DNA from: Marsupella aquatica | Lineage: Eukaryota; Plantae; Marchantiophyta | DNA length: 64,000 nt | Reading direction: 5' to 3' | NCBI GenBank assembly: GCA_973895155.1 | Contig: OZ316891.1 | Location: 4,683,708-4,747,707, forward strand | Shown here: positions 1 through 64,000 of the stretch, piece after piece | Numbering within the stretch: position 1 is the first letter of the stretch | Layout of the letters: every line of letters begins with the position of its first letter | The notes under the pieces: generated by a model | What the model was told of the DNA's origin: nothing | What the model saw: the letters and a program-made list of their open reading frames with translations, nothing else | Database searches by the model: none | Position numbers and translations under genes: made by a program

Positions 1-218
1 ATTTTTCAGTCCTACTGAAGTTGAAGATATTTTAACGACTCGGAAGATTAAAGCTGAAGGGACTTACTGACTATATAGTACTAAACGTCGTATTCCGATG
101 GCTTCGACTATGGAAACATTGATGTGAAGAAAGAGAAACTGCTTTAATGCTGTGAGTGTTTGTCTTCTTATCCGTCAGGATGGCCGTGTTCTAACTTGTG
201 TCATGGTGGATATCTCAG

Positions 219-32011: not shown

Positions 32012-32954
32012 TCCATTGGTCTCTAGTCAACTATGGCATGATGCATTCCTAGCTGGTGCTAGACAGTTGCTTGCATCATCAGTTGAAGACCCCGAGCAAT
32101 CATGTACCCCCGCACATGTTCAGGCAGATGTTGTTCATGAACCCATAGTGGTAGAGTTGGGGCATGGTAGGGATGATGCACCGCCCCCTACTAGGGTTCT
32201 ACGCACAAGACCATGTTCTCATAGACGTTGACAACAGCATGTAGTTCTAGACACAGACCCATCCCATGAGCACTTTAGAAGGAGTGTTATGCCTCCACCA
32301 GGGGAGGAGTACATAGAAGTTGAAGGGAGGTTGGGCTTGTCATATGTGACGGGAAAGGCAATCAGTGTCTTCAAGGATTTTGACCCTGAGAGTTTTGCGA
32401 TTCCTCGTGGCCTAGCCATTGACATCCCTGTACATATATGGGGTCGGCAATGGATAGTGAAGGCATCGACCCTTGTCGGGGAGGTTGGGTTAGGCTTATT
32501 TGCTTTGGAGGACATTGAGGTCCCTCCAAAGCCTTGGCGTCGTGGCTATGATGGGGAACACCTTTTCCCTTACATTGGGCCTGTGTATACATCCAAGAGT
32601 TGGAACATCCTCTTGCGCCAACATCCAGCTTGGGGGGTATATGCATTGCAGATGGGCTCAGACCCAGATGAGGTCCTAAGGAGGCCTTGGCATTGTAGGA
32701 TGATTGATGGGGACCCTGTGCGTTCAGATAACATAGCTGGGTACATCAATAGTACACATGGTAGAGGGAGTGGACTCCAGCCTAATGTAGAGTGGGCTCA
32801 GATTTTTGGCCCACCCACTCCGCCTTACTATGTCACACATATGGATGATCATGTTATGACAGTAGCCATACGGACCATTAGGGCGGGTGATGAGTTTTTT
32901 TGTGACTATCAATGGAACGCACCCACGATGGGCATTCGATCTGGCCACACTTAG
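32012..32954 (+). pseudogene. Element A SET-domain exon (begins 21340-21359, split by B; one premature TGA at 32229-32231)
   Basis: WIVKASTLVGEVGLGLFALEDI, LFPYIGPVY, IDGDPVRSDNIAGYINS, PNVEW, VAIRTIRAGDEFFCDYQW; clearly homologous to 26317-27147. Confidence 0.88.
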
Positions 32955-42729: not shown

Positions 42730-45700
42730 GGGAAAGGCGATGAAAGGAAAGAAATCTTACCTTTACGCAATGAAATCTACTAAGATACCTACAGACGGCC
42801 TTACGCAAACAACTTCTCCTGCACAGCAGCACCAGCAGCGTTACAACTTCAGCGGCACCTTCCACAGGCAGAAAGCCGGGCAGCAAGAGCGACAACCTCT
42901 GCACATGTTTGAGCCCTCACATTAGATGTAGTGGACTGGCTATGGTTGTTATGCAGACGCAGAGGAACAACGGAGGAACATGCACAAGGCAGAGACTCAG
43001 AGTTGACAACTAATGCGAAATCGCAAAGGGAGAGGGAGAGGGAAAGGCAAACACAAAAGCAAATCATCCTCAATAGCAATGGCCACAATGCCAACAATAT
43101 CTACAATTCTAGCGTGACCTAGATAGCAAGGTGGTGAGAAGGATTACAATGTAGGGAAAACAAACCTGCTCGACAATGTCTCAACCCTAGGCTCAGCAAT
43201 AGCTTTGGGCTTTCTTGAACAACAGCGCACTACAACAACGCCAACATGAAACCACAACAACGCTAGCAACCACAACAACGCCTTCGGCCAGCTTTGGGCT
43301 CAGCAATAGCTTTGGGCTTTCTTGAACGCCAGCAACAAACCTCCCTACAAGCGCCAAACAATGCCCGACATTTACTAAACGGAATGCATCAAAGACAGGG
43401 AGCCGAAGGATAGTACCACATTGTCTAACAAAGTCATCAAATACACCATGAAACTAAGTGTTTATAAAATCCCAGTCCAGACTTCAATGTAGGGTAGCAA
43501 ATCCCGGGAGAAGATCAATGCAAGCACATCATGCAGCTCAGGTAAGGTGGTGGAAAAGTAACAAACCTGCTAGACACAAAATTCCCGACACAATAAGTGA
43601 CACAATGTCTCAAACACGGGCTTAGCAAGAGCGAGAGCGACAGGTCTGGGCTTTTGTTGCTAAAACGTCCCTTCCTCCTTTGCGATGCAGTCTCCACAAG
43701 AGTGTCCAGCTTCACACAGCCCCGCACAGTGCTTTACCAAACAAAGTATACAGTAACTCACCACTCAATCGCCCTAATGCAGAATGTACTCAGGCCACAA
43801 TTGTAGCATTCCTGTCACTCGCCAAGCTCATAAACTCCATAGCCAGATTGATGTGGCGGCTACTCTGAAAGCGCGCCCTACATAGAATATGTGCCAATCA
43901 ATATCAGCTAAAGAAAACCAGCACTCCACAGACACCCGCACAGACATTGGCAGCCACATTTAGCTGCAACCAAATAGAGGCAATGCGCGTAGAGAAACAT
44001 TAAGCAAAGCTCTGATTGGCAAGTTCAAATGATAGGAAGAAACCAAACCTCTCGCACGTTGATAGCTTCCCGCAAATAGCACCTTCAGTAACGCTTGTCC
44101 TCAACCTAGTCTCGCCACTGTATTCCTTGATCAGCCTTGACGAAGCTTGCCTTTGTCCCAAAACCTACTTGTTGCCTTCATTGCCTAAGGGAACCTACGG
44201 AGATCCAGCACCCATCAACGACCTCCACTCGAGCCTCCACTGCAGCATTTCATTCAAGGCTCCATAGCTCACAAGCTCTGTGCAGCATTGCCAAGCGGCA
44301 AGCTTCCAACTTCTCTCAAGCTTGCCCGTGGAATGCGCGGCAAGTCCCTAGTGTGTCCAAAAACCCTAAAGGACTTGGGCCCTCACTCCCGCCCTCACTA
44401 CCCCGCGCTCACGTCCAAAACAGCCTGGCAAAAGAGGATGGCCTTTAGGGTCTAGCACTATACCCACTACTAACCCTGCCCATAACCTTTCCCTTTGAAC
44501 TATCCGGCGAACTATCCCCCAAACCAAAAAAACTTCCAAAATCCTTAGTCCTAGGTAGTACTAGTGCCATTTACACAAGCTTCAATAAGGACAAGCCACG
44601 TGGACCAATGATGTAATGACGCGTGGCCTCGGGTATTACAACCCCCCTTCAAGCAAATTAAATTGGCCCCTGGATTTACATTACCCTGCACTAGTTATAA
44701 CGTATGCTACACATACAACACACCCTTGTTGGTTATAACCCAATTATAAATATTAGTCGGAGTTTGGATTAAAAGCACCATTCGGCCGTTCGCACGTCCG
44801 GCTCGTTATTAATAATGCTGGGGGCCCAGGGTGTTCGCCTAGGATTGGCAGCGGATGGCATCAGCCCATTTGCACTAGCAGGTAAGGCCCAACCATATTC
44901 ACTATGGCCAGTGGTCCTTACTAATTACAACATCCCTCCATGGATGTCCATGAAGAAGGGTCATTTGCTTCTTTCCATGATTATCCCTGGTCCTAAGCAA
45001 GTGAAAAAAATTGATGTGTACTTGCAACCATTGATTGTGGAGCTACAAAAGCTTTGGAGTGGTGTGGATTGCTATGATGGTCGAGTGCAAACGGGGGGCT
45101 TACGTCGAGAATTTAAGTTGAAGGCCATTCTTATGTGGACCATACATGATCTTCCAGGTATGAATCTTTGTTAAATTATCCCTTCCCATAGCTAGGCAAC
45201 CATACCTAGCATACTTTGTTATGTATTGAGTTAGCTAGAAGCACATATATCTTTTAATAAACTTATTTACTTATGCATGGGATATATATTTATATGCAGG
45301 GTTTGGATATATTTCTGGCCTAACCACATCAGGATATCGAGCTTGCCCAACTTGTGGACCTGATTTGGAAGGAATAGCGCGGCCAAAGTCAAAGACCTTG
45401 AGGTAGATAGTGTATATTGGTCACACCAAGTACCTCCCTCCAGACCATGATTGGAGGAGAGACCCCTTTTTATATGACACTGAGGATGGCCAACCAGACA
45501 GACGACCACAACCTATTCCAAAAGATCCTGCATATTGGAAAGAGGTATGGGAGAGAGTATCTAATCCAGATGACCCATTGCAATATGCCCGCACTAGTAG
45601 AAACCGGGGGGTATTTAGACCCCATTAAACGACTATTCAGTACCGTATAGGACTTGGAAACGACTGGGAAGGACTCTAGTCCTTTATAGGACTGCGAGTC

Positions 45701-46417
45701 GTATGTTTTGTTACTATAATCAACTGAATCCTTTATAGAACTAGTTTATAAGTCGTTTAATAGACTGGATTTTCAGTCTATTTTAGTCTTTGTGTGGGTA
45801 GCTTTGGTGAGTCGTTTTCAGTCTTTTATGGGCTGCGATGATGAGTTGTTGGGAACGACTAAAAAGGTTATGGAGGGTAGTCTTTAAATATACTTTGTGG
45901 GGTATGTATAAGTCTTTCATGTCAACTGGATATGAGTGATGAAGACCCCACTATACTACTTGGAATGAACCCACTCTTGTGCACAAATAACATATTGCAT
46001 TCATGTTTTATTGTGTACTTGGAATGAACTCACTCTATAAGTTCACCATTCATCATGTTAACATTAGAATACATAGTTTCAGAAAGCCATCTTCTATACC
46101 ATGTACACTAATATGAATTCACAGATTCAAACTTCATAGACTACAAATGAGGTCACAAAGTATTCCTCTATACCATACACAGTAATACTGAAATGATAAA
46201 ATAGATTCAAGTATCATAGACAATCACCATAGAGCCATAGTTTGACATCAATCACTTGTTTCATACATACAGAATTCAGAAATATCAATGTCACACACAA
46301 CGTCTCCTTCATCCTCTTTACCAAATGGAAAAATTGGTACAAATATTTCTTGGATCTTTCCAAGGCAATGTCAAAATGTGACACAATTCACATGATGCTA
46401 TCTACACTTGCATTCAG

Positions 46418-49400
46418 TCACTGTAGACTAACACACTCTGATGGCCAGAGCACAAGAGATCCTACTGCATTTGCAATTATTTCCTGAGGTGGATCATCAT
46501 CTCTATTCGGAAATGGCAAATTACAATCAGATACAATCACTGTAGTCAACAACACTACTACATGGTCATCCGGGACCACTTTGCCATGGAATTTTGCATG
46601 ATCCGGTTGCAAAATGCCTGTACCCACACATACTTGCGAGTCATCCTCCCATGATAGAAGATTATGGACTGGCTCTGCTGTGGCTATCACCTCCACCTTA
46701 CCCTGGCTGTTTTTCTTGGCTTTCCTGGGTGGCTTATACATGACATTATTCATACCTTGGTTGCGAGTCATGACTTTGGCACGAGTGTTTTGTGCTGGTG
46801 ATCGAGAATTGGCTACACTCTTCTTCAAAGAATCTGCATCCATATTTGACACTTCTGATTGTGTAGCAGGATTTCCCTGCGACATCATCTCAGTATCTGC
46901 CAACATTGTACTTGCTTCAATTGAAGCATCTACAATCTTACTTGCATCCAATGTTGCTCCCAAGTTTCAACGTCGCTTCACCCTACTCCCACTTGGTTGA
47001 GAGTCTGTCAACTCTGCATCAACTACAATTCAGTGTCATGTCCAACATAAGTCAATCACTCATCACATGTGCTAAATGTACATGTCACCAACCACAAAGT
47101 TGTCACTATCTCCTTACCATTATGAACAGCCTTCTTCCCCTTCTTTGCCATTGCCATATGCTCCATGTCTGCTTCTGTTGATCAATAAACACACCACAAT
47201 ATTCAGGTTGAATCTATTAACCACTGAATTGTTGCCCAACATTCATATAGAGGAATTTAGAGCATCAGCTTACCTGATACCTCCTTGGCTATGGTCACTG
47301 AGGCACTGGGCACATCTTCTTCATTATTGCTCTTTGAATCACCTGATACATCAATCATGATGTCACTTCAGATCCCAGTTCATCCAACCAGTTCTTACAG
47401 AAAAGATTACCTCCAACCGGCTTAAGCTTCACAAGACTCCATGCACTTTTCAAATGTAATGTACTGGATCATAGCAGGTTACCTGTCTCAGCAACCTTCT
47501 TGCCCTTCTGCTTACTGATTACAGGGTCCTTCTCTGCCTCCACTCTTCCTGCATTCAAACCATTCACTCAATTCATGAAAACTTACTTCTAACATTTGAA
47601 CATAGAAAACAATGAACAATGGGCCGGTGTCATTTCCATACCTGTGTCAGATTTGCCAATTCCCTTTTTTGTTAACAAGGGCACACTTTGTACAATGTTG
47701 CCCTCATTGTTTGGTTGGGAACCACCCAATTTTTCAATCACAAGCTTGAAATTAGATTCCAATGATGCAAGAAGGTTCGCTACAGATGCCTCCACAATAT
47801 CCAAACGATCAGCCAATTTACTTTCCACTCGAGGGAGTCCACACTCTAATGACTTCAACCGTTCACACATCTCTGTGAGAGTTGTAACAGTTCCCTGTCA
47901 TAACACAGCTTACATATCTCAGATAACTGTCCCCAAGAACTGGTTGCTTACTTCCTACTACATTTCTTTTTGATGCTCAAGGCCAAATAGTCACAGAACA
48001 TACAGAATTACAACATAATCACCTGTTTGGAAGTTACACTTGTCACCTCACTCCTTTGTTTCATGAACTCCTCTCTCACTTCTTGTGCTGATGGTTCTTC
48101 ACCTGTCAATTTCTTCTGCAGTCCACATCAACATACATATGAATGAAACCAAGTGTTGATTGTCAATGAAAATGTAATAATGGTAGCAAGATGATAAGTT
48201 TGAGGCTTACTATCAGGCATGTCACTGCCTTACCAATTGTTCTTTCACTGGAGCATAACTTCCTCTCCCAGCCTGTGAAAGGTGTTTCACTTTGCCTCGA
48301 GCATTTGACATCAGTTCACTCTTGCTCTGTCCAGCCTCCGACATGAACCCTTTGATTAACCGTGTCCATTGATCCAGTTCCAATGATGGGGGTGGTGGCA
48401 TTCTCCTGTTAGAACCATTGTCTATCCACATCCTTTTCAACCTATGCCTCTCTTGTTTCAAAATCCTCATTGCATAATCTGATATGCAATCTTCAACTGG
48501 GCCCTTACCATCATTACCAACATACTCCCACCGTTCAAGAATGTCCTTGCAGATAGCAGCCCAATCAGCTTTGTTCTGACTCCTAAACTCTGTAATGCTC
48601 AAATCTAACCAACGCAATACTTCTCCTCTTAGGTCAGAATGCCAACGGTTCTTACCATCACATGTGGGAGTTATCCAACCTTCGGAATTCACTTCTACTT
48701 TACCAAATTTGTTACTGTCTCCTGCCTTGGTACTCCCTGAAGCGCTACTAGGTGTCCCTCCACGGCCTGGTGTCCCCCCACGGCCTGGGGTCCCTCCACG
48801 GCCTGATCTCCCCCCACGGCCTGGATTGCATTGTCCAAACCTCCCTGGAGTCCCTGCACATTTACAGGATCCATTTACAGTCACTTACATTAGGTAAGTA
48901 TGAATCATAAATCCCGCTGCCAAATATACAGTGGACTTCAGAGCAATTCTGCAATGACCAAGTTACCTCTCCCTTGGCGCATAGATGGTTCTGGACCACC
49001 TGTCCTATTGCTTTGTCTTGATGAATTAGGGGCGTTTCTCTTGCCTGTGAATGATTGCCTCCTATCTGAACGTGGATGGCCTTTGTTGTTTTCGTGATTG
49101 TCCCAATCAGAGTCTGCATACCAACAGGTACATGCCACACTCATGGACCTGTAAGATAAACTCTTTGCCCTAGCTACACATCAGATAAGTGCATATTGAG
49201 CTAAATCTCTACTACCATCACAAAATCACTAGCACAAGGCACTTACTTGTCCAATCATCCTCCTCACCTTTCCATTGCCCTCTGTACCCGTCTCTACCAC
49301 GCTCTAGGTGTTCATATTCATCCCATCCATCTTCTGCTCCATCATAGTCATCATCATAATTATCAGGCGTCCCTTGCCAATAACTCTGGCTCCTTCTAGG

Positions 49401-49589
49401 GTATGGATTATGTGATTTCTCTCTAGCTGCCCACCTACCTGGGACTTGATGAGGGCCCTGTGCATCTTGCACAGGTGCATTTTTTTGTGAGCCCCCTGCA
49501 TCTGGGTCTCCATCCATATCCAATCTTTCCTCTTCACCCCACTCTCCAAGCCCCATGTCTGTCTCCATGTCATCACCCTCTTCCCCCAT
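46418..49589 (-). CDS. Element C TnpA/PTTA-like multi-exon gene
   Basis: Exons include QERHRLKRMW...PPPSLELDQWTRLIKGFMSEAGQSKSELMSNARGKVKHLSQAGRGSY (Transposase_24-like) and C-terminal VGTGILQP...FHGKVVPDDHVVVLL...LPFP...NAVGSLVLWP (DUF8039-like); exact exon chain not fully resolved. Confidence 0.75.
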
Positions 49590-49766
49590 AGCTTCTGCAC
49601 AGCACCCACAACCAAACAGGGAGAATCAGCACACTAAATTCAAAGTATCAATCAATTTCATGCATATCCAACTATCCTAAACATCATTCCAGGCAGCAAT
49701 TCCCGTTCTGTGACTCTGTGCAGGTAGTCATCCTCAACCTCATACTTGCCAATCGCCAGCTGTTGC

Positions 49767-52700
49767 CTATTGCAAATCATCAACCTCATCATATTCCATT
49801 TGCCCAGGTTCATCATATGTCTCTCTCAATGTTAAGGGGATGTAGTCAGTCCCTGCCCGAGTTGGAAGTACAGTCTCATGACTAGGATGCTCGAATGCAG
49901 CATGGTCATCCAAACTGAACTCTACTTTACTTCCATCCATCCGCCTGTTCCGTGCTTGGCTATGGCATACCACCCTCCAGCCATGTGACTCCTCCACATC
50001 TGTAAAGAAAGCCTGTTCAACTTGGCTAGGGAAAACAAAAGGCTCAGACCATTCTGGTACTCTAGACCTAAAATTGGCCAACAAGAACCCATCATGATCA
50101 CGCTTCATGGTGGCCCTTGGTCTCTGCCACTCTGATTTCACCCATGATCCCTTCATCAATATCACTGGGACACTTGTGTTACCATAATTCAACACCCAAA
50201 TGTCGGTCAACTCCCCCACGTAACCCATCTTCATCCACCCCCTCTGTTCTTCAGAGGTTCTCTGCTCAAACACAGAAATCAAACCACAATCATATGATAC
50301 ACAATGGTCACCCTGCTCATCCCTCACTCGATAATGATTTCCATAAGCTCTCATCCGTTTGTAGGTCAGAATAGACAATCGTGGTGGCACAGATAGAAGA
50401 TACAAATCCTTCTCCATATCTGGGTGATGTCTACTATGCTCTCAAATTGTCACCCGAATCCACTGCTCGAACTGTGGGAAGGGATCCTGCTGCCCAGAGT
50501 GTGCAGCTTTTTGCATATCATATTCCCTGCAATATGAGGTACAGGCATAGTTAGGTCTAAACAACACATGACAACCTAAGATCACCCTTGGAACAGACAA
50601 GAAGCATCACAACAAAGGCAAGTCAATTCAATCACTCACCTCCACCATGGTTGCATAGGCTCTGTGTTTGCCAGCACATATGAATGAGCCTTGTCTCGAA
50701 TCGCAACAGGCAGTTGAACAGCACGTCCCACACCTTCAACAACCTCGCCACTCACTCCATCATCTTCACCAGATTTCCAAACTCTTGTCATAGCTTCACC
50801 AGACCCAGCCATGTACTCTGTTAGGAATCCCAACGTCTCATCCTTAATGTACCCCAATGCCATGGAAGCCTCTGGCCTGTAGTATGTTCTCACATGACCT
50901 TTCAACAACTTCATGTATCGCTCCATAGGGTACATCCATCTGGTACTGACTGGCCCATACTGCCCTAGCTCTTCTACCACATGGATTAGGAGATGAGTCA
51001 TAACATCAAAGAAAGCAGGGGGGAAGTATATCTCCAAGTCACAGAGGACATAAGCAGCATCCTGCTTCAACTGCTCCAATCCTTGGGGATCCCACACTTT
51101 CACACATATACGGCGAAATACATTGCACAGTCGAAGAATGACATTACGGACTGGTTTCTGCATGAGACCTCTGAGGCATAGGGGCAGAATGTGCTGCATC
51201 AACACATGGTAGTCATGTGTTTTCATACTGCCAAGTTTATTCTTTGTAATATGCTTCTTGAAGGCACCAGCATAGCCAGAGGGCACTTTCAGACAGCTCA
51301 ATCTATACAAGAATGTCTTCCATTCATCCTGTGTGCACACATAGGGAGCTTGGAACTTGAGAAGTACATTGGGATTGCTTGCATGGGGCTTCAACCAAAG
51401 GTGAGGGCGAATCCCCTTCTGTTGCATATCAGCTCGAACTGCTCCTGTATCTTTCTCACCCGACAAGAACTTCAGCAAGCTCTCACAAATATTTTTCTCA
51501 ATGTGCATGACGTCCACATTGTGTTTGCTGGGCTCGAATTCCTGCACTCCACAAAGCAAAGAATTCAACAACAGAAACACTAATTAACCACATAGGAGGA
51601 TTGTAACCAACATCAATCCACCATTGCTCCAATCTAAAATTGCAATCATATAGGGGCTGGAGGCTAAGTACATTACCCTCCAGTACTCCAACTCCAAGTC
51701 CATCAAGGTCTGTCTTTTCACACCGTGTTTCACCACTGGATCCTCAGGTTCTCGATCAGTGGCACTTCTCTTGTCCCAATCAGCCTTCCTGGCTGCCCAC
51801 CTCAGGACTTGCTCTCTGGTGACCCTCTGTGGTGGGCCACGAAGCTCTGTTTTGTTGTTGAAGTGTGCAATTTGAGACCGTGTGTGCCTGTAAGGATGAT
51901 CAACAGGCAGATACCTTCTATGCCCCTGAAATTTCATACTGTGCAGGGCATGCGACCACTCACTTGTCACATTTTTCCCACATGGTGTGCACCCCACATA
52001 GCCCTTTGTCACTCGTCCAGATATGATGCCATGGCCTGGGTAATCTGCTATATCCAGCAAACAAATTACATGCAGTCTAAAGGGGCTGGTTCGAAGAAGC
52101 CCCTTCAGAACATCATGGGTTAACATCCCTTCTATCCACAAAGTCTTCCACTCTTCCACTGTTGGAGCCAACATGATATCTATGAATTGCTCGGTCACAG
52201 AAGCTGGTCCAGGGATTAACAACACCATCATGACAAAAAACCTCTTTGTAGTCATCCATGGGGGAAGGTTGTAATTTAGCAGCGTAACCGGCCAACATGA
52301 ATAACGGTTGTTTTTGTCTCCAAATGGGTCTACTCCATCCAGTGATAGACCAAATCTAAAGTTCCGCTTCTCTGCAGCAAACTGTGGCCACCTCTCATCA
52401 ACAAATTTCCAATGGTTGGAATCTCCAATGTGACGCTGCAGGCCATCACTGCTCTTGTTATCAGGAGTCCATGTCATCAGCTTGGAAATGGCAGGGCATC
52501 TAAACAGACGTTGTAGTCTAGGAATGAGAGGAAAATGACGAAGAACCTTGGCAGGGTGTGTACATTTCCCTACATTCTTGTACCTGTGCTTACCACAATG
52601 AGGGCATGTCAATTTATCTGCATGCTCTTTGTGAAAGAGAACACACCCATCAGGGCATGCGTCAATAGACACATAGTTCAGCCCAAGGTTAGACATCAAT

Positions 52701-53467
52701 TTCCTAGCCTCGTACATATTTTTTGGAATTGAATTACCATCTAGTAACACATTTCGGCGCAGGAAGGTCAACAACTCTGTCACAAATATATTGGGAACAT
52801 TGTGATTGCCACAGATGTTCAACAACAACACGACAAAACCCAACTTGGAGCAGTTCGACCCCTCGTAGATAGGAATGCAAGCTTCTTTGATGTGTTTTGG
52901 GCCCCCAAACACCCACTCCCTCTCTGCTGCACCTTCCCCAATGTCAAAGTCAGGTTCAGCTTGGCCGTCGCCAATGTGTGGCTGCGGTTCATTGTCCTCT
53001 TCTGATTCCACTGTGTCGTAAAAAGCATCAAGGTCTTCAAAAATCTCTTGAACCATTCTTGGGACATCCATCCCACCGTCCTCAGTGACTGCCTCTCCAT
53101 CTCCATCTTGGTCATCCACGTTCTCATGTTGGACCCCAGGACCATCCTCTGCACAGTCTATGTCCTGCTCTACGTAGTCTCTATGCCTAGCTGTATTAGA
53201 ATCCACAAAGTCAGCTCTCCACTCTTCATCAGGGGAGTCTTCTTCTGCTGGTACATTCCAAACCCTCCACCGAGGGTGCCTTTCATGCCGCAGCAGGTGA
53301 AGGTGCACAGTGTTCAAACTCAACGACTTGAATCCTTGGCACTGTGTGCATGGGCATCTCATCCTCCTACTCCTACCTTGGGCGGCTCGGGCTTGTTCAC
53401 GCATCCACAATTTAGAATCATGATGCCTAATCCTAAATGGGTTGTGAAGAGGCAACCTTGGAGCCAT
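49767..53467 (-). CDS. Element C TnpD transposase (exons ~53467-51678, 51541-50640, 50526-49767); one probable CGA>TGA stop near 50443
   Basis: RCPCTQC, IDACPDGCVLF, RFGLSLDGVDPF, SCWPVTLLNYNLPPW, DIADYPG, HNVDVMHIEKN, MKTHDYHVLMQ, FPPAFFDVMTHLLIH, RWMYPMERYM, EPFVFPSQVEQAFF. Confidence 0.95.
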
Positions 53468-53793
53468 CACTATACACACGCACTCAGCACCCTGTCATTT
53501 TATTATGCAAGTGAAAAATACACTTCCTGTTAAGGATTTCACCCCCGACTGTACTTGCCAAAATACGTAACGTTCCAAAAAAACAAAAAAACAAAAAATA
53601 TAGGTGCCTGAGTCATGTACCTATTCTCAAGTGAATGAGACAAAATTCCTAAATGTTTGAGGGTGTCAACTCCTCCGCTGTCCTCACATGTACTGCCTCT
53701 GCACGTACATCCATGACCATATCAGAGTCCAATCATGTATAGTCATAGACACAGGTGCCAGGTGCGAGACCGGTGTGAGATGTCCTCATCTTA

Positions 53794-54363
53794 CTACCAC
53801 ATCAAATACGGATACCAATCCTGTTGTCGATGCCACTCAACCCTGAGGTACTCAGGCATGTACATTAAGTCATCAAGGTCTAAACCCTGCTCATGCCATG
53901 GTGGTCTTCGATCCGTGCCTACAAGCAGTGGCAGCAGTGCCCTCCATGGTGCACATGTTGCTACCAAATCCCTCCACTGGGTACTAATTAGTCTATATTT
54001 GCAGATATCTTGTGCGCCAGACACCACAAGAACCCTCGGCCAGACATGTGTAAGAACTATATCATCTGCCAAATCAGGCAACAAGGAACCACCTACAGCA
54101 TCGTGCTTGTCTAACTCATCTGCTGAAAAGTAAATGTCCTCTTCCGACTGTGCATCCTCATTCACCACAGCATTCACAACACATCCAAGGTCTGCAGGCA
54201 TTATCTTGGATGGAGCTACACTCTGTCTGGTTACCAATCCACACAAGTAAGCCCAAGCAGTAGCCATGCACGATGCAACCCGTAGGAGGACCCTACATAG
54301 GGCCTGACGGTCTGGAAGAGGCAGCATACCCACCAAAGTCTTCAGCCAAACAAAGCCCAGCAA
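53794..54363 (-). CDS. F-box-like small protein (cargo of C)
   Basis: SLLPDLADDIVLTHVWPRV...DICKYRLISTQWRDLV fits the plant F-box pattern LIPGLPDD...R.V.K.WR.L; first ATG at 54327. Confidence 0.6.
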   Translation of the reverse strand: MLGFVWLKTLVGMLPLPDRQALCRVLLRVASCMATAWAYLCGLVTRQSVAPSKIMPADLGCVVNAVVNEDAQSEEDIYFSADELDKHDAVGGSLLPDLADDIVLTHVWPRVLVVSGAQDICKYRLISTQWRDLVATCAPWRALLPLLVGTDRRPPWHEQGLDLDDLMYMPEYLRVEWHRQQDWYPYLMW

Positions 54364-54503
54364 GTAGATTCACAGTCACACCCCACGCAGCAGGAAACAA
54401 CAATCACTTCAACTGCGACCAACCATGACAAGATGAGTTAGTTCAAGGATCACATTTATTACAAAATTGTGATTTATACAAAAATATGAGGGACTCCTAC
54501 TCC

Positions 54504-55367
54504 TCACTCTCTCCCACCTTTGCTAAGCATACATCTCCGCTGAATCTTGGAGGGCCAGGCCTCAAAAATATCAAAGTCCCAAGCATTCTGTCGCTTCCCT
54601 CTAGCTGCTGATTCCAGAAGCCAATCAGGGGAAAGCACCCAAAGATTGTTGTTCATGACAAAATCACGCACTGTTGTCTTAAAGAATTTTCTGCATATTT
54701 TCATGTATGACAGACCTACAACATGAGTGGAGGTTTCTGTTAGACTCTCCTCCACTGTCCCACCTAGCTCAACAACTATAGACTTGTACAATCTGCACTT
54801 AGTCTCCCCAATTCCTTCTTCTGCAAATACCACACTGAACCCCTTCATAATGGTATTTCTCTCCTTGCCATGCTCATTCAATATAGCATCTGCACGCATA
54901 GGATGGTGTCCTATGTTGACAACAGGTCCATATTGGACAGAAGCAAAGTTGGGTTTCTTTGCCGCTGCTTCATAGGCTTCCTTTTCAGCCAAAGCCTCTG
55001 CAGTGGCCTCCTCACTCTCCCACAACTCATATTGCTCAGTACTCTGTACACACCTATGTTTAACAGAATCGGTCAGCCAAGAGACTTCAACTACTTTTAG
55101 ACCTTGGTTGGTAATGGCAGAATCAATGAAGGACCATGACCACTTGTTCATCACATCCAGCCATGTCCCCGCAACAACATGTGTAGTCTGTGGAGTGATG
55201 TCCTTGACTTCAGTCCCATGGAACTCTGAGAATCGTTTTTGTACGATTGGCCAACTCACTTGGGTGAACCCATAGTGGCCAGGAATCAAAATGGCTTTGA
55301 TTCCAGCCAACAGAGGTGGGTGGTCAACCTTTGTACGTTTCCTAGAGGCCATGTACACACGGACCAC
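54504..55367 (-). CDS. Tandem double-BRCT protein (cargo of C), resembling the plant Pol lambda BRCT
   Basis: Two repeats: LAGIKAILI...THVVA...VVEVSWLTDSV...EQYEL and MKGFSVVFAEEGI...ELGGTVEESLTETSTHVVG...LSPDWLLESAARGKRQN; ATG at 55352. Confidence 0.85.
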   Translation of the reverse strand: MVRVYMASRKRTKVDHPPLLAGIKAILIPGHYGFTQVSWPIVQKRFSEFHGTEVKDITPQTTHVVAGTWLDVMNKWSWSFIDSAITNQGLKVVEVSWLTDSVKHRCVQSTEQYELWESEEATAEALAEKEAYEAAAKKPNFASVQYGPVVNIGHHPMRADAILNEHGKERNTIMKGFSVVFAEEGIGETKCRLYKSIVVELGGTVEESLTETSTHVVGLSYMKICRKFFKTTVRDFVMNNNLWVLSPDWLLESAARGKRQNAWDFDIFEAWPSKIQRRCMLSKGGRE

Positions 55368-55950
55368 CTAATCATTGCAGACCGGAAGATAATGCGTTCA
55401 CCTGATAATCGGAGGGCCCTTAAAATGCTGCATTTATAACTTGGTCCAGTCTAGTCGTCTGGTGAGTCTCTGCTCCGATTCCAAACGGGAGAAATATTGG
55501 GACAAACGTACTAGACACCTGCAAGCATGCACCTCATAGTTTGAATATGTGCCTTCACAATATTGAAGGTGACAAGTGCAATTGTTTTGTGATGCCACAT
55601 ACAGATGTTGTAAATGGGCAGACATTCAATGACAATACAAAATGTTGGTACACTTTAAGGGAATTCTCGCAAATTAAATAGCCTTGTAACTTATATGCTC
55701 ATAATGAGAAGTCCTGATTTAATTTAAGCAGTGTCATGTAAGTCGTGATCAAAATGATTGCAGAGTTAAAAAAGTTCCTAGAAGGCTTAAGGGGAGTTTT
55801 TGAAGGCATGTACCCAGGAACAAGTAATGAACTTAGGGTACTTGTTGCCTAAGCATCCTCTCCTACAGAGGTCCTTCTTCTCAAAATTGGAATGTCTGCA
55901 ATCTCCAAGGTATCCACATCAGGTGCACTATGCATGTACATTATTCAGGT

Positions 55951-56631
55951 TCAAAGCCAAGAAATGTGATCTCTCATGGGAGTGTGCAAAGTAGGATCTA
56001 TGGCATGGCGATGACAATAGAAGATCCATCGATCAACACCATGTGCAGAGTGATCATAGATGTGTCTGTCACAAGCATAGCCTTCTGCTTGACGCTCCTT
56101 CAAACAATGAAAGTGCCACATGGTGGGACACCTAACACAGTGGACTATGTCCACCCAGAAATCTTCATCGTGCTGACCACATGCCTTGCACTTATGAAGT
56201 GGGCAAGCTGTGGCAAGATCGGGCAAACATGAAAAACAAAAGAACCTCACACAATATCTGTCAGGGCATTTCCTAACAAGTGGTGGAGCATCAACAGAGC
56301 CCTCATAAGACCCCAACTTCCCACACTGTGCACACTTAGCCTGCTTCTCCAAACAATCAGTGCACATCCAGCCTCCCTGGTGTGCTGACGGGAGGCCCAC
56401 CCCTGGACAGTTGTTTTCTGCAGCAAGGTCAGACTCCGGGTTGAGGTGGAAATGCCTCATGCAAGGGCCCTCACATATGGCTAAGCCACCACCATCATCA
56501 CAAATGGCACAACAATGAGCTGCCTTCTGGAAAATCTGACTTGCGGAGAAGTTACTACCATCTGGCCCAACTACACCTGTGTTGCTCACCTCTGTCCCCC
56601 ACTTCTTGGCTCGGATTTTAGGGCGTGCCAT
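55951..56631 (-). CDS. Stand-alone EDM2-like composite PHD-finger protein (cargo of C)
   Basis: CAICDDGG.L.ICEGPCMRHFH...CTDC...CAQCGKLGS...KC....C.RFF...CPLHKCKAC...HCVRCPTMWHFHCL...IFYCHRHAIDPTLHTPMRDHI follows, from memory, the EDM2 PHD region including its LIYC.EH.IDEEL.TP.RDH end. Confidence 0.85.
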   Translation of the reverse strand: MARPKIRAKKWGTEVSNTGVVGPDGSNFSASQIFQKAAHCCAICDDGGGLAICEGPCMRHFHLNPESDLAAENNCPGVGLPSAHQGGWMCTDCLEKQAKCAQCGKLGSYEGSVDAPPLVRKCPDRYCVRFFCFSCLPDLATACPLHKCKACGQHDEDFWVDIVHCVRCPTMWHFHCLKERQAEGYACDRHIYDHSAHGVDRWIFYCHRHAIDPTLHTPMRDHISWL

Positions 56632-57300
56632 GCCTACGCCTGAGACAGATAGTACAATTTAGCAGAGTGCACAGACAATACAATTTAGTGTAGTGTACAA
56701 AAAGTACAGTGTAGCATATAGACTAGAGTGGCAATTGCTACTGCAATGAAATGTTCACACACATGTGCAGAGTAGACATACTTTTTGGTTTGTTGAGCCC
56801 ACACTAAAAACTGATCCCCTCGTACAATAGCTCCACCTACACCTCAATTTTGTGGCTATGATTCACCAAAGGAGATCTGCAACAAGATTTAATGCATTTG
56901 AATCACATATAACAGTCGTGACATGTAAAACAGGCATTTTTTGAACAGGATTGGTATCAAGCAGTGTGATCAGGGTTGTAATTTATACATCCTAAATAGG
57001 CTATGATAATGAATGAGACAAATAAGTTAGGCATAAATCACTTTTTCCAGGTTATCACATGGCCCATTAATTCCAGTCTTTGAAAGGAGACTTTTAAGTG
57101 AGCTTGCTAGCCTCTTAAATTAGGATATTGTACTTAGTGCAGCCATAATAGGATAAGTTATGTACTGTTGACCGTAAACCCTGGACCCAAAATTGCTCAT
57201 AATTCAAAATCTTAAGTAAATATCCTCTCTGTTCAAGTCAAAGTGTTAAGTTATAGGTCAATGGTCTCTGGTCTGTGCATGCGGTGTGACAAGTGGTCTT

Positions 57301-57861
57301 CTACAGCGTGTGATCCAAACATGTGTAGACACCAAAGTGACCGGTGGTGGGGTCTGGGAGGGCAGGACAAGTGACATCGCCAGGCACACTGCAGGATGGC
57401 GAGTGGTTCCAGATGATACATTGTGCTCTGTGAAAAAACCGACATCCAAGAGAACGGTCATCCAACTCTAGGCCAGAAGCCCTATAGGCAGGACAGTCAT
57501 ACTGGCAACTGTGCACACACCCTTGGGCCCTAATTTGTGGCGGGTCATGTACGAGAGACAATGTTGGGAAGGGTGGAGAAGCAGGTACAGGGCGGCTATA
57601 GTTATTCCTGGCAACAACTGGGTACTCAAAGTACCATGCAGACTGGGCTGGAAGGATCCCAAGTCTGACATACTCAAGGCGCAACATGTCTGCCTTGCGT
57701 GCAAGCCGCACATGTTCAGCATTGCGGGTCCTCACCATAAGTGTTGCTTTTGTGGAGTGTCGTGTGTTCACGTCCTCTGATAAGCACCTTCGATCAGCAA
57801 GGTGAGCAGGAGCTGTACTTGCCTCACCAACAGCAACCAACCTTAAATTATCAGTTCCCAC
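57301..57861 (-). CDS. Hypothetical Cys/His-rich protein (possible cargo of C)
   Basis: 186-codon ORF co-oriented with the other cargo; C-terminal GCVHSCQYDCP...GCRFFHRAQC..NHSPSC; no family recognised; start codon uncertain. Confidence 0.35.
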   Translation of the reverse strand: MGTDNLRLVAVGEASTAPAHLADRRCLSEDVNTRHSTKATLMVRTRNAEHVRLARKADMLRLEYVRLGILPAQSAWYFEYPVVARNNYSRPVPASPPFPTLSLVHDPPQIRAQGCVHSCQYDCPAYRASGLELDDRSLGCRFFHRAQCIIWNHSPSCSVPGDVTCPALPDPTTGHFGVYTCLDHTL

Positions 57862-59280
57862 TCACTGTGTCATTCCATTGGTTCCAGCTAGGGGTCACAA
57901 TGTAAACATAGCATGAAACACTCCTAATCAACTTGCTTACAAACTACAATATCCAGAAAGAGTGAAAGTCTCACCCTCCAGTGAGCAGCAGAGAGGTAGT
58001 TCATTGGATGTGTTGATGTGCAGTTAAACCTCCACTATTGCTTACTTCCGGTGTATGCTGCTTAGTCGGAGACATATTAGTAGCAGCAAATTGCAAATAA
58101 TGGCCATAAGCAAACCGTGAGAGTTTGCAGAATGTTACGACAACTATTCATCCATCACAACAGTGCTCCACAGGAATGAAACCAAGCAAAATTTGGTGAC
58201 CTCGGCCAATGACAAGGCCAATGTAGTTCACAATCCTTGACCGATCAGGATATGGATTGGAATTACAATTAGTCAGCTCTTCTTCTTCTTCTTTGTTTTC
58301 TAACTCTGGGCAAATGAGCATGACCAGGGAATTCTCTGAGAAATAGAAGTGCACAGGGAAAATGAAATTGGCTCATTGAGTTGCGCAAGACCGCCCACTG
58401 CAGCATAAACAAACTCATGAAGTGGCAGAAAGGATAGCGTCGCCACAAGCGCAAAATCCCGACAGGTTTAAGCTGCAAAAAACTAACCCATCCAAATGTG
58501 ATTGCAATGGTGTTGAGGTCGTCTATTCACCACCCCACTCCACCGTGGGAGCATTGGGCACAAGGCATGTTCGGATCCAGGGAGGAGCAAAATAGTCATG
58601 TGAAGCAACAAGTGTGGAGAGACCAATAAGTAAACAAAAATAGGGAAGAACAATGCGGTGATCATGAGCAGCAGGAAACAAGGAAGTTGATTTGGGAGGG
58701 ATTGTAGGGACAGAGCTTTTGGTGGGCTTGGCTGCGCGTTCATATCGGAAGATAGATGCGAGAGAGTGTGAAGAGGGTGGCAACCAACAAAGGCAGTGGC
58801 AAGCAAGCAAGCAATACACGATGATAGCCGCAATCGGCAATGGCGGTGGGAGGCAGCAATAGGCTAAATGACTATTCAGTACCAATCCGCAGCTCGTCCG
58901 ATGAGAATGAGTGACATGAGGAAAATGCCAACACACTGACCCACTACCAAGAAGAAAGAAAACCAATCTCAACCACCCTCTATCATCAATGACAGGACAT
59001 ATATTCAAAAATCCAAGCTGCAATTGACGGAAACAATAACATAAACAGAATTCTGAACATAAACTGCTCATGAAGCTTTCGGGATCATATATTCCAAGAG
59101 CAAATGTGAACATGCCAATATATGAAAGCTCTGGCATATAGGGCATTGCATTCCATAGAGACGTCTGCACCAAAGAGCTTGGAAGCAATTGCCTATCTGC
59201 TGGAAGCAGGAAACATATATGTAAATCCCAAGCCCATACTACATTGGAGATGATCAGCTCACTCAGACAGACATTGCATT

Positions 59281-59420
59281 TTGATTAACCAAATGTAGCA
59301 GGCTAGCAGAGGGACGAAGGATAGGGCCAACACTAATGCATAGCAGTGAACAACTATGATTAACCAAATGTCAGTAGCAGGCCAGCAGAGGGACGGAGGA
59401 TAGGGCCAACACTAATGCGC
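59281..59420. repeat. ~75-bp tandem duplication
   Basis: TGATTAACCAAATG...AGCAGG.AGCAGAGGG.ACG.AGGATAGGGCCAACACTAATGC twice. Confidence 0.8.
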
Positions 59421-62400
59421 AGTTGTGAAAGACTGACAAATAGAAAGCAAACGAGAGCTTCAAATATAGAACATCAAACCTTCAGCAGCGGTCAATGGGC
59501 TTTGATTCACAGGTCGCCTGGCTTGGTCCCTTGTCGCAGCTCGCCCAGCTCCACAACACCGTAGACAAGGAGTTGGCTGGTCCAATTTCCACCATGCAGC
59601 GTTAGCAAAACTGCAATGCTTGATCTTCGCCCTCCGCCCTTTGCCCGAACCCCAAAATAGACCTCAAAGTAGAAAGCCAGCAAAGGGTTGAGCAGAAATC
59701 CCTAGAAAATCCCGCCTCTAAAGTCCATTGCTCGTGGTTACAAATGATGGCAACGGAATATTCGGGCAACCCAACAGTTGAACTGACCTCAATCACACCT
59801 GCACCTGGTTGGCAGCTCCGCAGACACTAATTGTAGCTCTAGTTGAAGACATCATTTGAACAGCAAATCAGTCACAGCTCATGAATCCGTTCAGACTAGC
59901 ATCATGGGTACTACGTCGGAGCACTGCGCAAGAAGCCAGGAAAAAACTGCAAACATGGGGACCCACAGGCAAGAAATCTGGACCTCCGACACAATCTGGA
60001 AATCCTTTCGCAAACAACTGGCCCTCTCCTCAACAACTTGCGATGGTAGTAGCTCGCAATGGTAGCAGCTCGCGATAGTAGCTCCCTTCAACAAGCTTGG
60101 TAGTGCGATAGGAGCAACAACTTACAGAGAAGACAGTGACCTCCCCTATGAGACTGATTGAAAGACCTCAATACAATTACTGAAGCAGGGATACAGAACG
60201 GGGAGAAGCCTTTCGCAGTTTGGGACGGCGAGAAGTGTGAACACTTAGGGCAGGGCCCGCAGGAAGGTCACTCAGTCCGAATGAGCCACAAGCTTATCGC
60301 CCAAAACCACGCAAACCTGAAGTTGAAATTAGCACTATGAGGTAGCAAGCTACAAAATAGCATTTCCCACATTCTTAATGCATGGCATCGGAGCTCATTC
60401 CGCCTAGAAAACCAAAGCCACTACCAAAACTAACTTGCAAATGGAAGTTTGGACTAACCAGGGTGATTCAGGGCAGTTCAATGTCACTATGGCAGGTGCA
60501 TTGCTGCTCGTAGCTGCAATGTACCTTAGCGCTCCCGGTCCCTCCACGGCTGCAACTTCCCAAGACCGGTCGGTCCCAGCCAGTCAGTCTTCTCTGAATC
60601 TTGGTGCGCCCACGTTGTCTCAATCCGAAGCTGTCAGCTCTCAGGCAGGAGACAAATCTCCGCTTGCCTTCGCACCAAAAGCTGTCACTGGCCTCAAGAG
60701 CCTCTAAGGCAATGTCCGCAATGCCTCAATGTCCTTACCACCTCACGACTGTCAAGGTCCCAAACCAGCGCAAACCACTTGCTGAACTCCTTTGTCCAAA
60801 CAATTGTAAGGGGCATGCAGGTAGAACTGTCAAAAGCGCTCGCAGGAGCGGATGGCAACAATTGACTACAATCGCCTCCCAGCTTCCCTCGCAAAATGTT
60901 AACCCTAAACCCTACTCGTATGCTCCACTCATAGAAGCAAAGCACAATGTTCTGTCGCACAATGGGGCCCGAACACATGGGCGCAAGTACTCGATAGTTC
61001 CCTTCACAAAAACCCAATAATCACCTGATGACCAAAGCACACTCACCCTAACCCAATACTTAGTGCAAGCAGTCATGTAAGCTCGTTTCCGTTGAGGTGA
61101 CCCGTTGAGCATAATAAGTACGTTTGCGCCAGAGTGTTAGGCAACACACAAAACTAAAGAGGGTTAAGGATAACTTTAAATAAATCCCTTTGGTGACAAA
61201 GTCATGGCCACTTAATTAGTTGTGGGCCCCCCTAACCCTCCCCCCCCCCCCTTGTGGAATTAATCTTGGATCAAAAGGCACCATCATTTACACTCAAATC
61301 AATCAAGTTGTGGACTGTTCATTATGTCAATTAGTGCCCATGACCCTGTCAAAACAACACTAGTTGGCAATGCGGAATATATCATGGTGTGGGAGTTGTA
61401 CCTAGCTAGGGTTATAGTGATGCATTAGTTCCGGTTCTGGTTAGAAACCACCCTAAGCCCTCCAGTACAGTTGTACCCTAAGTTATGAAAAGTACCCGTT
61501 ACATGAATATTTATGGTACAATGTTAGTTAAGGTTGGTGATATATACAAGGCATGTCCTTAAGCACTTAGGCCCAAAAGTAGGATGTCGCCCGGTCCTTC
61601 TTAAGTATACTCTTATCATGAACCCTTGTAAGACTTTGTCTTATACTAGTCTTTGTGTGGACCTTTAGAGTGATTCCAAGAACAAAACCCATGATGTCCT
61701 AGAGTGTTCACCCTTCACAAAGTAGCAAGGTTACTTTTCATAGTCTTTAACTAAACCGGAAAACACTCAAAGTCTTTTATAGTCTTTAACAAAACCTTGG
61801 CAATGGGTGCAAGTCATTTAAAGTATGGAAGAAGGACTTAGTGGGCTTAGTCCTATAAGGTATGGTCTAAATTACCCCGGTTTCTACTAGTGCCGGTGTG
61901 GCATGACTTGTTTGTCTGCATTGTCACAACTGCCTTATTGGGCTGAGATGCCACTTAACCATTTATTTGACCCTATGCACATTGAGGGAAATGTTGGGAG
62001 GTCCTTGATTTGCCACCTATATGGAGAGAAAGACAACAACTGGAGAGAGAGTTGTGAAGAGATGGGGATGCATGGCCCTCATGGTTTTTGGCCATCTATG
62101 GATCCCGATAATGCCCCCCTTACTATTCATCCTCCTTGGGTTTTGACACGAGGTGAGCGGACCGAGTTTCGCAAACGCATAGGGTCTATGCGATTTCCTA
62201 CAGGGTATGGTGCCAATCTTCGCAAGGCATTTGGTGGACTTGACTCTCCAAAATGGCCAGCTTTCTTGAAGACCCATGATTATCATCGCTTATTGCAACA
62301 TGTTATTCCAATTGCTATTATTGGATTGGGTAGTGAGGATCTTCGTGATGCCCTTTGGTCGTTGGGTAAGTTGTTGAGATGGGTGTGTCAAAAGGAGGTG

Positions 62401-64000
62401 AACGAGGATGAGGTTGCAGCAATGGAGGTGTTTGGAGTGGAGGTTGTGTGCAAACTTGAAAGGGCCCTTCCTCCTTCATTTTTTGATGGTCAGGTTCATT
62501 TTCTACTACATCTAGTGCGTGAGGTTGGTATTGCAGGCCATGTACATTGTCGTTGGATGTACTGGGTAGAGCGGTACATGGGAGTGATGAAGTCCTATGT
62601 TTCAAATCGCGCAAGGGTGGAAGGTAGCATTGTAGAGCGTCATCTTGGAGCAGAGAGCATGTTTAATTGTACAAACATTATTGCTACACTTGATTCAAAT
62701 GCTCCAAGGGGGTGGATAGATGAGGCATCAAGAGAAGCAGACTATGAGGATGACCGTTTGACAAGTGCAAAGGGAGAACGGCTTCTTGACCCTAGTGAGC
62801 GCACTAAACTCACTGCATTCATGTTGTATAACTCTCCAGAGATTGTTGGGGAGTGGACCACATTTTATGAGGAGGATAAGCACAATAGTCGACGACCACG
62901 CTTATTTCCCAAATTCCACATGTACATGAAGGGGAAGTTGTTAGAAGTGGATGCCTTGGTGGCTGCTGGGGAGAGTGTATCACACTTCCCAATGGTGACT
63001 GATAAGTTGCGCACCTTGGTTCATGGACCTCTACTTACAGTTACAACCAGGACTGCCATGTGGTCCAAGGGGAGACACTTTCGTGTGGAACGACTTGATG
63101 ACAAGAGGGCAGCTACACAAGATTGTGGTGTGATGGGTTGGTTCACCCAGGATTTTGTAAGTAGCAGATCTGACACAAATCCCATCCGTTCTACTATAGC
63201 TCACTATGGAAAGATAGAGGAGATCCTTGTTGTAAAATACCATGCGCATACAACATTGGAAGAGGTGGTGCTGAAGTGCAAATGCTTTCGGATGAATCTT
63301 GTTGGCCACAATCGAACATGTGAAGAGGATGCTTGCGGCTTCACACGACTGAAGATAGGGGCTGTCATCAGCTCAAATTGGAGGGCCTCAGATCCTTTTG
63401 CATTTCCGCATAATCTTGAGCAGGCATTCTATCTCCCTTATCCAGATGATCCTGAGTGGTCCATTGTAATGCCTTACATTCCACGATCCCGATCCATAGT
63501 CCAAGAACAGCCAAATGTAGTTGTTGTGGAAGATTTGGAAAATGAGAACAACTAGCTACTTAGGAATTTCATGGTAAAAGCTAGGTAGCTAGCACTAGCT
63601 AGACCTAATTAATGACCACTTCCCTCCATGTATTGATTTTTTCGGCATATATATGTTATCTACATTGTCATTACCATTTTTTTGTTGCATGTTACTTTAC
63701 TTATATATACCACTTAAATCTCTGGGCTCTAGCTGTGGCTATATATTTGTGCTTTTAATATATATGAAATGAAAGCTTCCAATTCATTTCAAGTTGACCC
63801 TAGTTGAGTTCCCACATACTTCAAATGGAAATGGAGTCAAAAACCTATCGGAAACACAACATGCCTTAATTAGAAGCTAGGAAGATGATAAAACCCTCAA
63901 AAAACCCCGGCTCTACAGAAAACTGATATTTCCGATATTAAAAGAAACGGAACTCATATGCCATACTACAGGTATCGGGAAACTTTTCCATCTTTACCAC

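What the first reader, a model, noticed from the sequence alone, without database searches (positions are those of the whole stretch)
55951..56631. Transposon-borne EDM2-like composite PHD domain
Seen: a 226-aa ORF that is almost entirely the composite PHD module, with a short basic N-terminus (MARPKIRAKK, NLS-like). Known: Arabidopsis EDM2 reads H3K9me2 through this module and, with ASI1/IBM2 and AIPP1, promotes full-length transcripts across intragenic heterochromatin. Inference: a TE copy lacking the EDM2 C-terminal methyltransferase-like domain could mask H3K9me, act as a decoy, or help the element transcribe through its own heterochromatin. I know of no description of this in CACTA elements.
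Basis: partly seen in the sequence, partly recalled or inferred. Interest (0 to 1): 0.85.

Follow-up and report, generated by a model that had tools for sequence, protein, structure and literature searches.

The report
Transposon carries remodelled EDM2 reader gene
A 16-kb plant jumping gene (a CACTA transposon) carries an intact small gene made of the zinc-finger module of the plant chromatin protein EDM2 in a consistently altered form, which likely helps the element keep being transcribed in silenced chromatin, though neither histone binding nor expression has been shown.

Summary
In detail: 55951-56631 (minus strand) is an intact 226-aa ORF made almost wholly of a triple zinc-finger module. 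It is EDM2-type rather than generic NSD-type: 29% identical to Arabidopsis EDM2 over residues 41-225 (E 3e-25). It shares EDM2's PHD1 insertion and C-terminal tail, which the NSD-like controls lack. It lies inside a bounded 16.3-kb CACTA element (18-bp terminal repeats, CCG duplication, empty site in three runs), in a row of same-strand cargo ORFs upstream of the transposase. About twenty short relatives exist, down to 38% identity; the 11 put in a tree form one clade. They are a remodelled module, not a plain EDM2 fragment. The acidic residues before PHD1 are gone in 18 of 18 and kept in 124 of 124 host proteins; a PHD2 His has become Cys; about 19 residues are deleted. So identical H3K9me2 reading cannot be assumed. 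Host EDM2-like proteins without the methyltransferase-like domain already exist in liverworts and moss. Best reading: a maintained anti-silencing chromatin adaptor of the element (0.45). Binding, partners and expression are untested. It is a new variant of transposon chromatin cargo; SET cargo in EnSpm elements is already published.

The parts
55951..56631 (-). 226-aa stand-alone EDM2-type triple zinc-finger (PHD module) ORF
45592..61892 (-). 16,301-bp CACTA element that carries the ORF
   Evidence: terminal repeats and CCG duplication; empty-site joint 45588-61893 in X2, X3, X5
45592..45609 (.). left terminal inverted repeat (18 bp), preceded by CCG
61875..61892 (.). right terminal inverted repeat (18 bp), followed by CCG
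56632..56642 (-). candidate 3' splice site (CAG/G) just upstream of the PHD start codon; use not shown
   Evidence: crude score, rank 38 of 1161 AG sites in the element
57301..57738 (-). 145-aa Cys/His-containing ORF upstream, no family match; gene status uncertain
54504..55352 (-). 282-aa BRCT-domain cargo ORF; one stand-alone relative at 61% identity
53794..54327 (-). 177-aa cargo ORF with a weak F-box-like stretch (E 0.1, below cut-off)
49767..53467 (-). TnpD-type transposase in three ORF pieces (Transposase_21, DUF4218, DUF4216), probably joined by splicing
   Evidence: splicing inferred
46418..49589 (-). TnpA-like region in several ORF pieces (weak Transposase_24)

Best explanation
The ORF is an intact accessory gene inside a CACTA transposon, encoding a remodelled copy of the EDM2-family PHD module that likely acts as a small chromatin adaptor countering silencing of the element. 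Shown: location inside the element, EDM2-type ancestry of the module, conserved zinc ligands in a divergent family, and loss of EDM2's other domains. Inferred: capture from a streptophyte EDM2-family gene long ago; nuclear import by the basic N-terminus; binding to methylated-H3 chromatin and/or to EDM2's RNA-processing partners. Inferred outcome: transcripts run through the element's own methylated body and past the upstream cargo ORFs to the transposase, or silencing readers are kept off. Because the PHD1 pocket is altered in all readable members, its ligand is predicted to differ from EDM2's.
For: Bounded element with an empty site. Contigs of X2, X3 and X5 cover all 30 bins of the element, the ORF included, with many variant contigs. 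EDM2 characters: the tail motif is in 9 of 11 short members, 35 of 40 EDM2, 6 of 6 liverwort short paralogs and 0 of 6 NSD-like controls. The PHD1 His-to-next-Cys distance is 7-12 residues in the short family and 2 in the controls. Profile scores favour EDM2 over the controls for 11 of 11 members, though by under 5 bits for two. The family is one clade, 100/99. Constraint: relatives at 38-81% identity keep full length and ligands. In one diverged contig, 28 listed differences of 30 give pN about 0.10 and pS about 0.22, and none of 15 Cys/His codons changes residue. Rationale from papers: the EDM2 complex promotes distal poly(A) use across heterochromatin (PMC7472560); edm2 mutants lose COPIA4 transcripts (PMC3632883); TnpA-activated Spm elements keep H3K9me (bioRxiv 10.64898/2026.08.24.746577). 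CpG observed/expected is 0.24 in the ORF, against 0.55 in the first 3 kb of the window.
Against: Acidic residues in the six positions before the first PHD1 Cys are absent in 18 of 18 readable short members and present in 124 of 124 readable other proteins. His39 aligns with an AIRE aspartate that I recall as the unmodified-H3K4 contact, so H3 binding may be changed or lost. About 19 residues of PHD2, which could be a partner surface, are deleted. The protein has no recognisable sequence-specific DNA-binding or effector domain, so how it would favour its own element is unexplained. EDM2 represses the DNA transposon Mu1, so an EDM2-like activity need not help a DNA transposon. The trees do not nest the family inside EDM2; one placed it between EDM2 and the NSD-like outgroup (support 87). 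Only the window's copy has known flanks.
Confidence: 0.45

Rival explanations
1. Integration-site reader: the module guides the transposase to a chromatin state (for example other repeats), as chromodomains do for some retrotransposon integrases. It could work as a separate subunit or be spliced to other element exons.
For: This copy is inserted into another CACTA's transposase gene in a repeat-dense region. There is a candidate splice acceptor just before the ATG. Readers fused to integrases are described as linked to targeted insertion (PMC12477816). A remodelled pocket fits a new mark preference.
Against: One insertion site is no bias. The ORF has its own stop upstream of the transposase, and its start context recurs in relatives. 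No transposase interaction was tested.
Confidence: 0.2
2. Non-histone scaffold: the zinc fingers no longer read histones and work with the neighbouring BRCT and F-box-like cargo in recruiting repair or ubiquitin machinery during transposition.
For: The PHD1 pocket is altered in all readable members. BRCT cargo is adjacent and conserved, and there is a weak F-box-like match.
Against: The whole three-finger module and the EDM2 tail are kept. Neighbourhood alone does not show partnership, and the F-box match is below cut-off.
Confidence: 0.17
3. Faithful EDM2 mimic: it binds H3K9me2 exactly as EDM2 does and bridges to AIPP1/ASI1 homologues.
For: It covers the full module of EDM2. EDM2 PHD fingers are reported to bind H3K9me2 (review PMC7472560), and EDM2 came down with H3K9me1/2/3 peptides (PMC6208443).
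Against: Fixed changes at PHD1 and PHD2 and a long stem branch. The part of EDM2 that binds AIPP1 was not established in the passages I read.
Confidence: 0.1
4. Neutral passenger: a captured gene fragment (Pack-type) multiplied with the element, without function.
For: CACTA elements capture host sequence (PMC13317346). Several short relatives are truncated or change frame. pN/pS is only about 0.46 in the one contig tested.
Against: Full-length relatives down to 38% identity share start, end and ligands. The deletion and substitutions are shared and in frame. In run X7, diverged contigs lie on ORF segments at summed depth up to about 8400, against 17 or less in the flanks.
Confidence: 0.08

Closest known systems
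Arabidopsis EDM2 (EDM2_ARATH) and land-plant EDM2 family
   Same: Triple atypical PHD module with the PHD1 insertion and the C-terminal TP-x-RDH-type tail; 29% identity, E 3e-25.
   Different: No RFTS (DNMT1-RFD) domain, acidic tract, methyltransferase-like domain or proline-rich tail. Acidic pre-PHD1 residues lost, PHD2 His replaced by Cys, PHD2 spacer 7 residues against mostly 26-27. Encoded inside a transposon.
Bryophyte short EDM2-like host proteins (Marchantia Mp1g03210 and Mp4g03050, Riccia, Calypogeia, Physcomitrium)
   Same: Module near the C-terminus, no methyltransferase-like domain; Mp4g03050 is 280 aa and almost module-only. Sisterhood with the five liverwort short paralogs tested is not rejected (p-AU 0.27).
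   Different: They keep the acidic residues, the PHD2 His and the long spacer. Sisterhood is not shown.
NSD1/2/3 PHD cassettes (PHD1-3 and PHD5-C5HCH)
   Same: Same Pfam models. The C-terminal half of the predicted model resembles PHD5-C5HCH tandems, including the NSD3-H3K9me3 complex 4GNG (Foldseek probability 0.99, E 0.013; VIA Z 5.1, rmsd 2.7 over 75 residues to 9GBF).
   Different: Much lower profile score (45 bits). The match ends before the EDM2 tail, and there is no PHD1 insertion.
Plavaka (EnSpm/CACTA) accessory genes of red algae; SET cargo of HarbingerS and Helitrons
   Same: Large CACTA-type elements with conserved chromatin-related accessory genes (bioRxiv 10.1101/2025.02.11.637652, passages).
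   Different: Those are enzymes (adenine methylase-SET, 2OG oxygenase). This is a reader-only module from a host RNA-processing and chromatin factor; that paper's text has no PHD mention.
VANC of VANDAL and TnpA of Spm (transposon-encoded anti-silencing factors)
   Same: Element-encoded accessory proteins proposed or shown to counter silencing.
   Different: These are sequence-specific DNA-directed regulators. The PHD protein has no such domain and derives from a host gene.

Membership tests
CACTA/EnSpm element cargo | CACTA-type terminal inverted repeats with 3-bp target duplication enclosing the gene | tested here: met
   empty site
CACTA/EnSpm element cargo | TnpD (Transposase_21) within the same ends | tested here: met
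   E 6.6e-58
EDM2-type PHD module | Three consecutive atypical zinc fingers alignable to EDM2 225-432 | tested here: met
EDM2-type PHD module | EDM2-specific PHD1 insertion and C-terminal tail, absent from NSD-like proteins | tested here: met
   tail 9 of 11, 35 of 40, 6 of 6, 0 of 6
EDM2-type PHD module | Phylogenetic nesting within the EDM2 family | tested here: inconclusive
   long branch, position unresolved
EDM2 orthologue (full protein) | RFTS N-terminus and methyltransferase-like C-terminal domain | tested here: not met
EDM2 orthologue (full protein) | Acidic residues before PHD1 Cys1, PHD2 His ligand and long spacer | tested here: not met
EDM2 orthologue (full protein) | Binds H3K9me2-containing H3 tails | not testable with these tools
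   needs a binding assay; no EDM2 structure appeared in PDB searches
AAE (ASI1-AIPP1-EDM2) complex member | Binds AIPP1/EDM3 | not tested
   no AIPP1 sequence held; complex prediction not run
NSD/ASHR3 methyltransferase | SET domain in the same protein | tested here: not met
   SET ORFs in the window belong to other elements
Transposon anti-silencing factor (VANC/TnpA-like function) | Expression reactivates or demethylates cognate copies | not testable with these tools
   needs a transgene or knock-down experiment

The most novel reading that the evidence does not exclude
CACTA elements of a land-plant lineage captured the reader module of the host's own heterochromatin read-through factor EDM2, re-engineered its histone pocket, and use it as a histone-level counter-silencing protein. 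With the SET-domain cargo of neighbouring CACTA families, this would be a transposon-encoded reader/writer toolkit acting on histone marks rather than on DNA motifs.
Probability: 0.3. Interest if true: 0.85.

Novelty: new variant of a known kind. Interest (0 to 1): 0.62.

Why it matters
The plant transposon anti-silencing proteins in the papers I read (VANC, TnpA) recognise DNA motifs. A conserved, element-borne derivative of EDM2 would point to a second route through histone reading or RNA 3'-end control. It is also a small natural variant for dissecting how the EDM2 module recognises H3K9 methylation, for which I found no solved structure. The substitutions fixed in the family (acidic patch, PHD2 ligand, PHD2 spacer) give directly testable residues.

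Tried and rejected
No whole genome is held, so copy number, other copies' flanks and the host's own EDM2 could not be examined. The run search listed no RNA holder among 13 runs, which says nothing on expression; no joint listed or 56 had intron-like ends over the ORF, but both tables were cut and the runs are contigs of unrecorded kind. A search for longer fused forms returned only 2 distant NSD-like proteins among 3195 candidates; it missed EDM2 itself, so it is weak. Metagenome scans gave no usable locus: 0 of 118 stretches and one 19-residue match of 153, treated as chance. Earlier-findings look-ups returned nothing. The first structure model was poor (pLDDT 50.8). The second (67.0) is weak over PHD1, so the pocket was judged from sequence only. 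The idea that every cargo ORF has its own splice acceptor: YAG/G within 25 nt of the ATG in 3 of 6 ORFs against 16% background, too weak to use. Sisterhood with fern and seed-plant EDM2 is borderline (p-AU 0.056) and with liverwort short paralogs not rejected (0.27). The tree used 64 rows, and searches used subsets of 33 and 25, dropping long-branch P0147 and most angiosperm rows. Complex prediction was not run because no H3 or AIPP1 sequence was held. Lei et al. 2014 is not held, so its binding data come only through a review. ESM Atlas gave only a streptophyte NSD-like PHD cluster at 0.93.

Full report
Observation. The ORF is real and on the minus strand: 56631-55951 gives 226 residues starting MARPKIRAKK and a stop. 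Residues 39-180 match the Pfam NSD-like PHD1, PHD and variant-PHD models in that order, each below its cut-off. The window is streptophyte DNA: a clathrin exon matches Streptophyta clusters best. A non-seed land plant is my inference, from the closest host relatives being mostly liverwort, fern and lycophyte proteins; it was not tested. No genome is held.

Setting. A scan of CACTA-type ends found 45592 and 61892 with 18 identical bases and a CCG duplication. Contigs from 3 of 4 runs laid (X2, X3, X5) join 45588 to 61893 with three ambiguous letters, which is the empty site. The 16,301-bp element interrupts the transposase gene of another CACTA (pieces at 33064-33945, 44773-45174, 45407-45625 and 61891-63555). 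On the minus strand it holds, in order: a Cys/His-containing ORF without family, the PHD ORF, a BRCT ORF, a weakly F-box-like ORF, TnpD in three pieces and a TnpA-like region. Runs X2, X3 and X5 (organisms A, B, C) cover all 30 bins. X2 and X3 contributed 5651 and 14050 contigs, most 95-100% alike, which fits a multi-copy family although depth is not a copy number. In X7 (organism D), diverged contigs lie mainly on transposase and PHD-ORF segments: summed depth up to about 8400 within the ORF and 17 or less in its flanks.

Family. Five relatives of 217-245 aa at 38-81% identity were found among 107 candidates. A profile search of 1.84 billion representatives (545 hits, best 150 listed) added more short members, which took most of the top ranks; I counted 22 short members including the window's, several truncated. 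None of the 8 short members looked up has an NCBI or UniRef record, and three more are Logan-only. That fits repeat-masked transposon genes but does not prove it; only the window's copy has known flanks. The 11 members put in a tree form one clade (98), as do 8 in the careful tree (100/99). In one 227-base diverged contig, 28 of 30 differences were listed: 10 silent over 45.7 sites and 18 replacement over 179.3 sites, and none of 15 Cys/His codons changes residue. This is modest evidence of constraint.

EDM2 or NSD. The long hits are EDM2-family proteins: Marchantia EDM2 133.5 bits and Arabidopsis suecica EDM2 106.7, against 45.3 for NSD2 with the same profile. P0001 aligns to EDM2_ARATH 225-432 at 29%. 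Two characters separate EDM2 from NSD-like controls, and the short family has both. The C-terminal tail motif is found in 9 of 11 short members, 35 of 40 EDM2, 6 of 6 liverwort short paralogs and 0 of 6 controls. The PHD1 insertion is 7-12 residues from His to the next Cys, against 2 in 5 readable controls. Against this, the trees do not place the long-branched clade securely. It falls on the EDM2 side in an unresolved polytomy, but between EDM2 and the outgroup (support 87). Origin from a streptophyte EDM2-family gene therefore rests on shared characters and scores; the donor is unknown.

What differs from EDM2. (1) No RFTS or methyltransferase-like domain. The missing methyltransferase-like domain is not unique: Marchantia, Riccia, Calypogeia and Physcomitrium host proteins lack it too, and Mp4g03050 is a 280-aa near module-only protein. 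(2) In the six residues before the first PHD1 cysteine, 0 of 18 readable short members (of 19 tried) have Asp or Glu, against 124 of 124 readable others (of 181; these include isoforms and near-duplicates); 17 of 18 have His at -2. That His aligns with an AIRE aspartate which, from memory, binds unmodified H3K4. (3) In PHD2 the His ligand is Cys, with a 7-residue spacer in 14 of 22 short members (7 unreadable, 1 mis-parsed). The others have His in 111 of 124 and a spacer mostly of 26-27. The AlphaFold model (mean pLDDT 67, weak over PHD1) resembles NSD PHD5-C5HCH tandems in its C-terminal half, one of them solved with H3K9me3; scores are middling and show no function.

Mechanism. Shown: a conserved, intact, reader-only accessory gene in a mobile CACTA family. 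Inferred: nuclear, chromatin-associated and beneficial to the element. EDM2's PHD fingers are reported to bind H3K9me2 and other marks, and the ASI1-AIPP1-EDM2 complex favours distal polyadenylation across heterochromatin (PMC7472560, passages; PMC7529245, passages; PMC10852260, passages; PMC6208443, passages). EDM2 promotes COPIA4 transcripts but represses Mu1 (PMC3632883, passages). TnpA-activated Spm elements retain H3K9me (bioRxiv 10.64898/2026.08.24.746577, passages and one section), so an active CACTA may need to be transcribed through marked chromatin. This element's transposase also lies behind several same-strand ORFs. I commit to an anti-silencing chromatin adaptor with altered specificity (0.45). 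The rivals are integration targeting (0.2), a non-histone scaffold with the BRCT and F-box-like cargo (0.17), exact EDM2 mimicry (0.1) and neutral passenger (0.08). Binding, partners and expression are all untested.

Novelty. Chromatin cargo in EnSpm/CACTA elements is published: Plavaka accessory genes with SET and adenine-methylase domains, with SET cargo also in HarbingerS and Helitrons (bioRxiv 10.1101/2025.02.11.637652, passages). Readers fused to integrases are known as well (PMC12477816, passages). I found no report of an EDM2-type module in a transposon in ten full-text searches. The direct ones were: EDM2+PHD+transposon+composite, 0 papers; CACTA+liverwort+PHD+transposase, 0; EDM2+Marchantia+transposon, 1 listed and not read; EDM2+CACTA, 9 listed of 10, two read in passages, seen mostly as listings. 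A gene-capture review and an Arabidopsis TE-product atlas have no PHD mention in their main text; PMC7218100 has no EDM2 mention. The library lacks most subscription papers and Repbase. The supplements of the bioRxiv survey of 962 Spm proteins were not seen and could list such a domain.

Verdict. Real, correctly located and EDM2-related, but a remodelled stand-alone module of untested function. New variant of a known kind; interest 0.62.

Noticed in passing
window 26317-27147 (-) and 32232-32954 (+): Two other CACTA elements each carry a SET-domain ORF directly upstream of the transposase on the same strand (Pfam SET above cut-off; 45% identical to each other). Both read INST where the usual SET motif (recalled) has NHS, so activity is uncertain; no PDB match.
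   Followed up: partly
window 54504-55352 (-): Stand-alone BRCT protein as CACTA cargo, probably tandem BRCT; one stand-alone relative at 61% identity.
   Followed up: partly
window 34811-39568 (-): Run of long ORFs (187, 607, 345 and 397 aa) without a Pfam family at cut-off, lying between pieces of the SET-bearing CACTA's transposase; possibly another, unclassified DNA transposon.
   Followed up: no
window 13264-14922: 1.66-kb non-autonomous CACTA-type element with terminal repeats, AAG duplication and inverted arrays of a 24-bp repeat.
   Followed up: no
window 8116-9232: Near-perfect long palindrome: 472-nt arms 98% complementary plus inner 81-nt arms with a 12-nt spacer.
   Followed up: no
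window 58768-61552: Part of the PHD-bearing element with roughly 10- to 50-fold lower contig depth in X2, X3 and X5 than its core; perhaps a subfamily-specific segment.
   Followed up: no
proteins P0060 and P0147: Other short EDM2-type module proteins outside the transposon clade: Marchantia Mp4g03050 (280 aa) and an unnamed 226-aa JGI protein, suggesting repeated origin of module-only forms.
   Followed up: partly
window 195-1438 (+): Exons of a clathrin heavy chain gene, the only clear host gene seen.
   Followed up: partly
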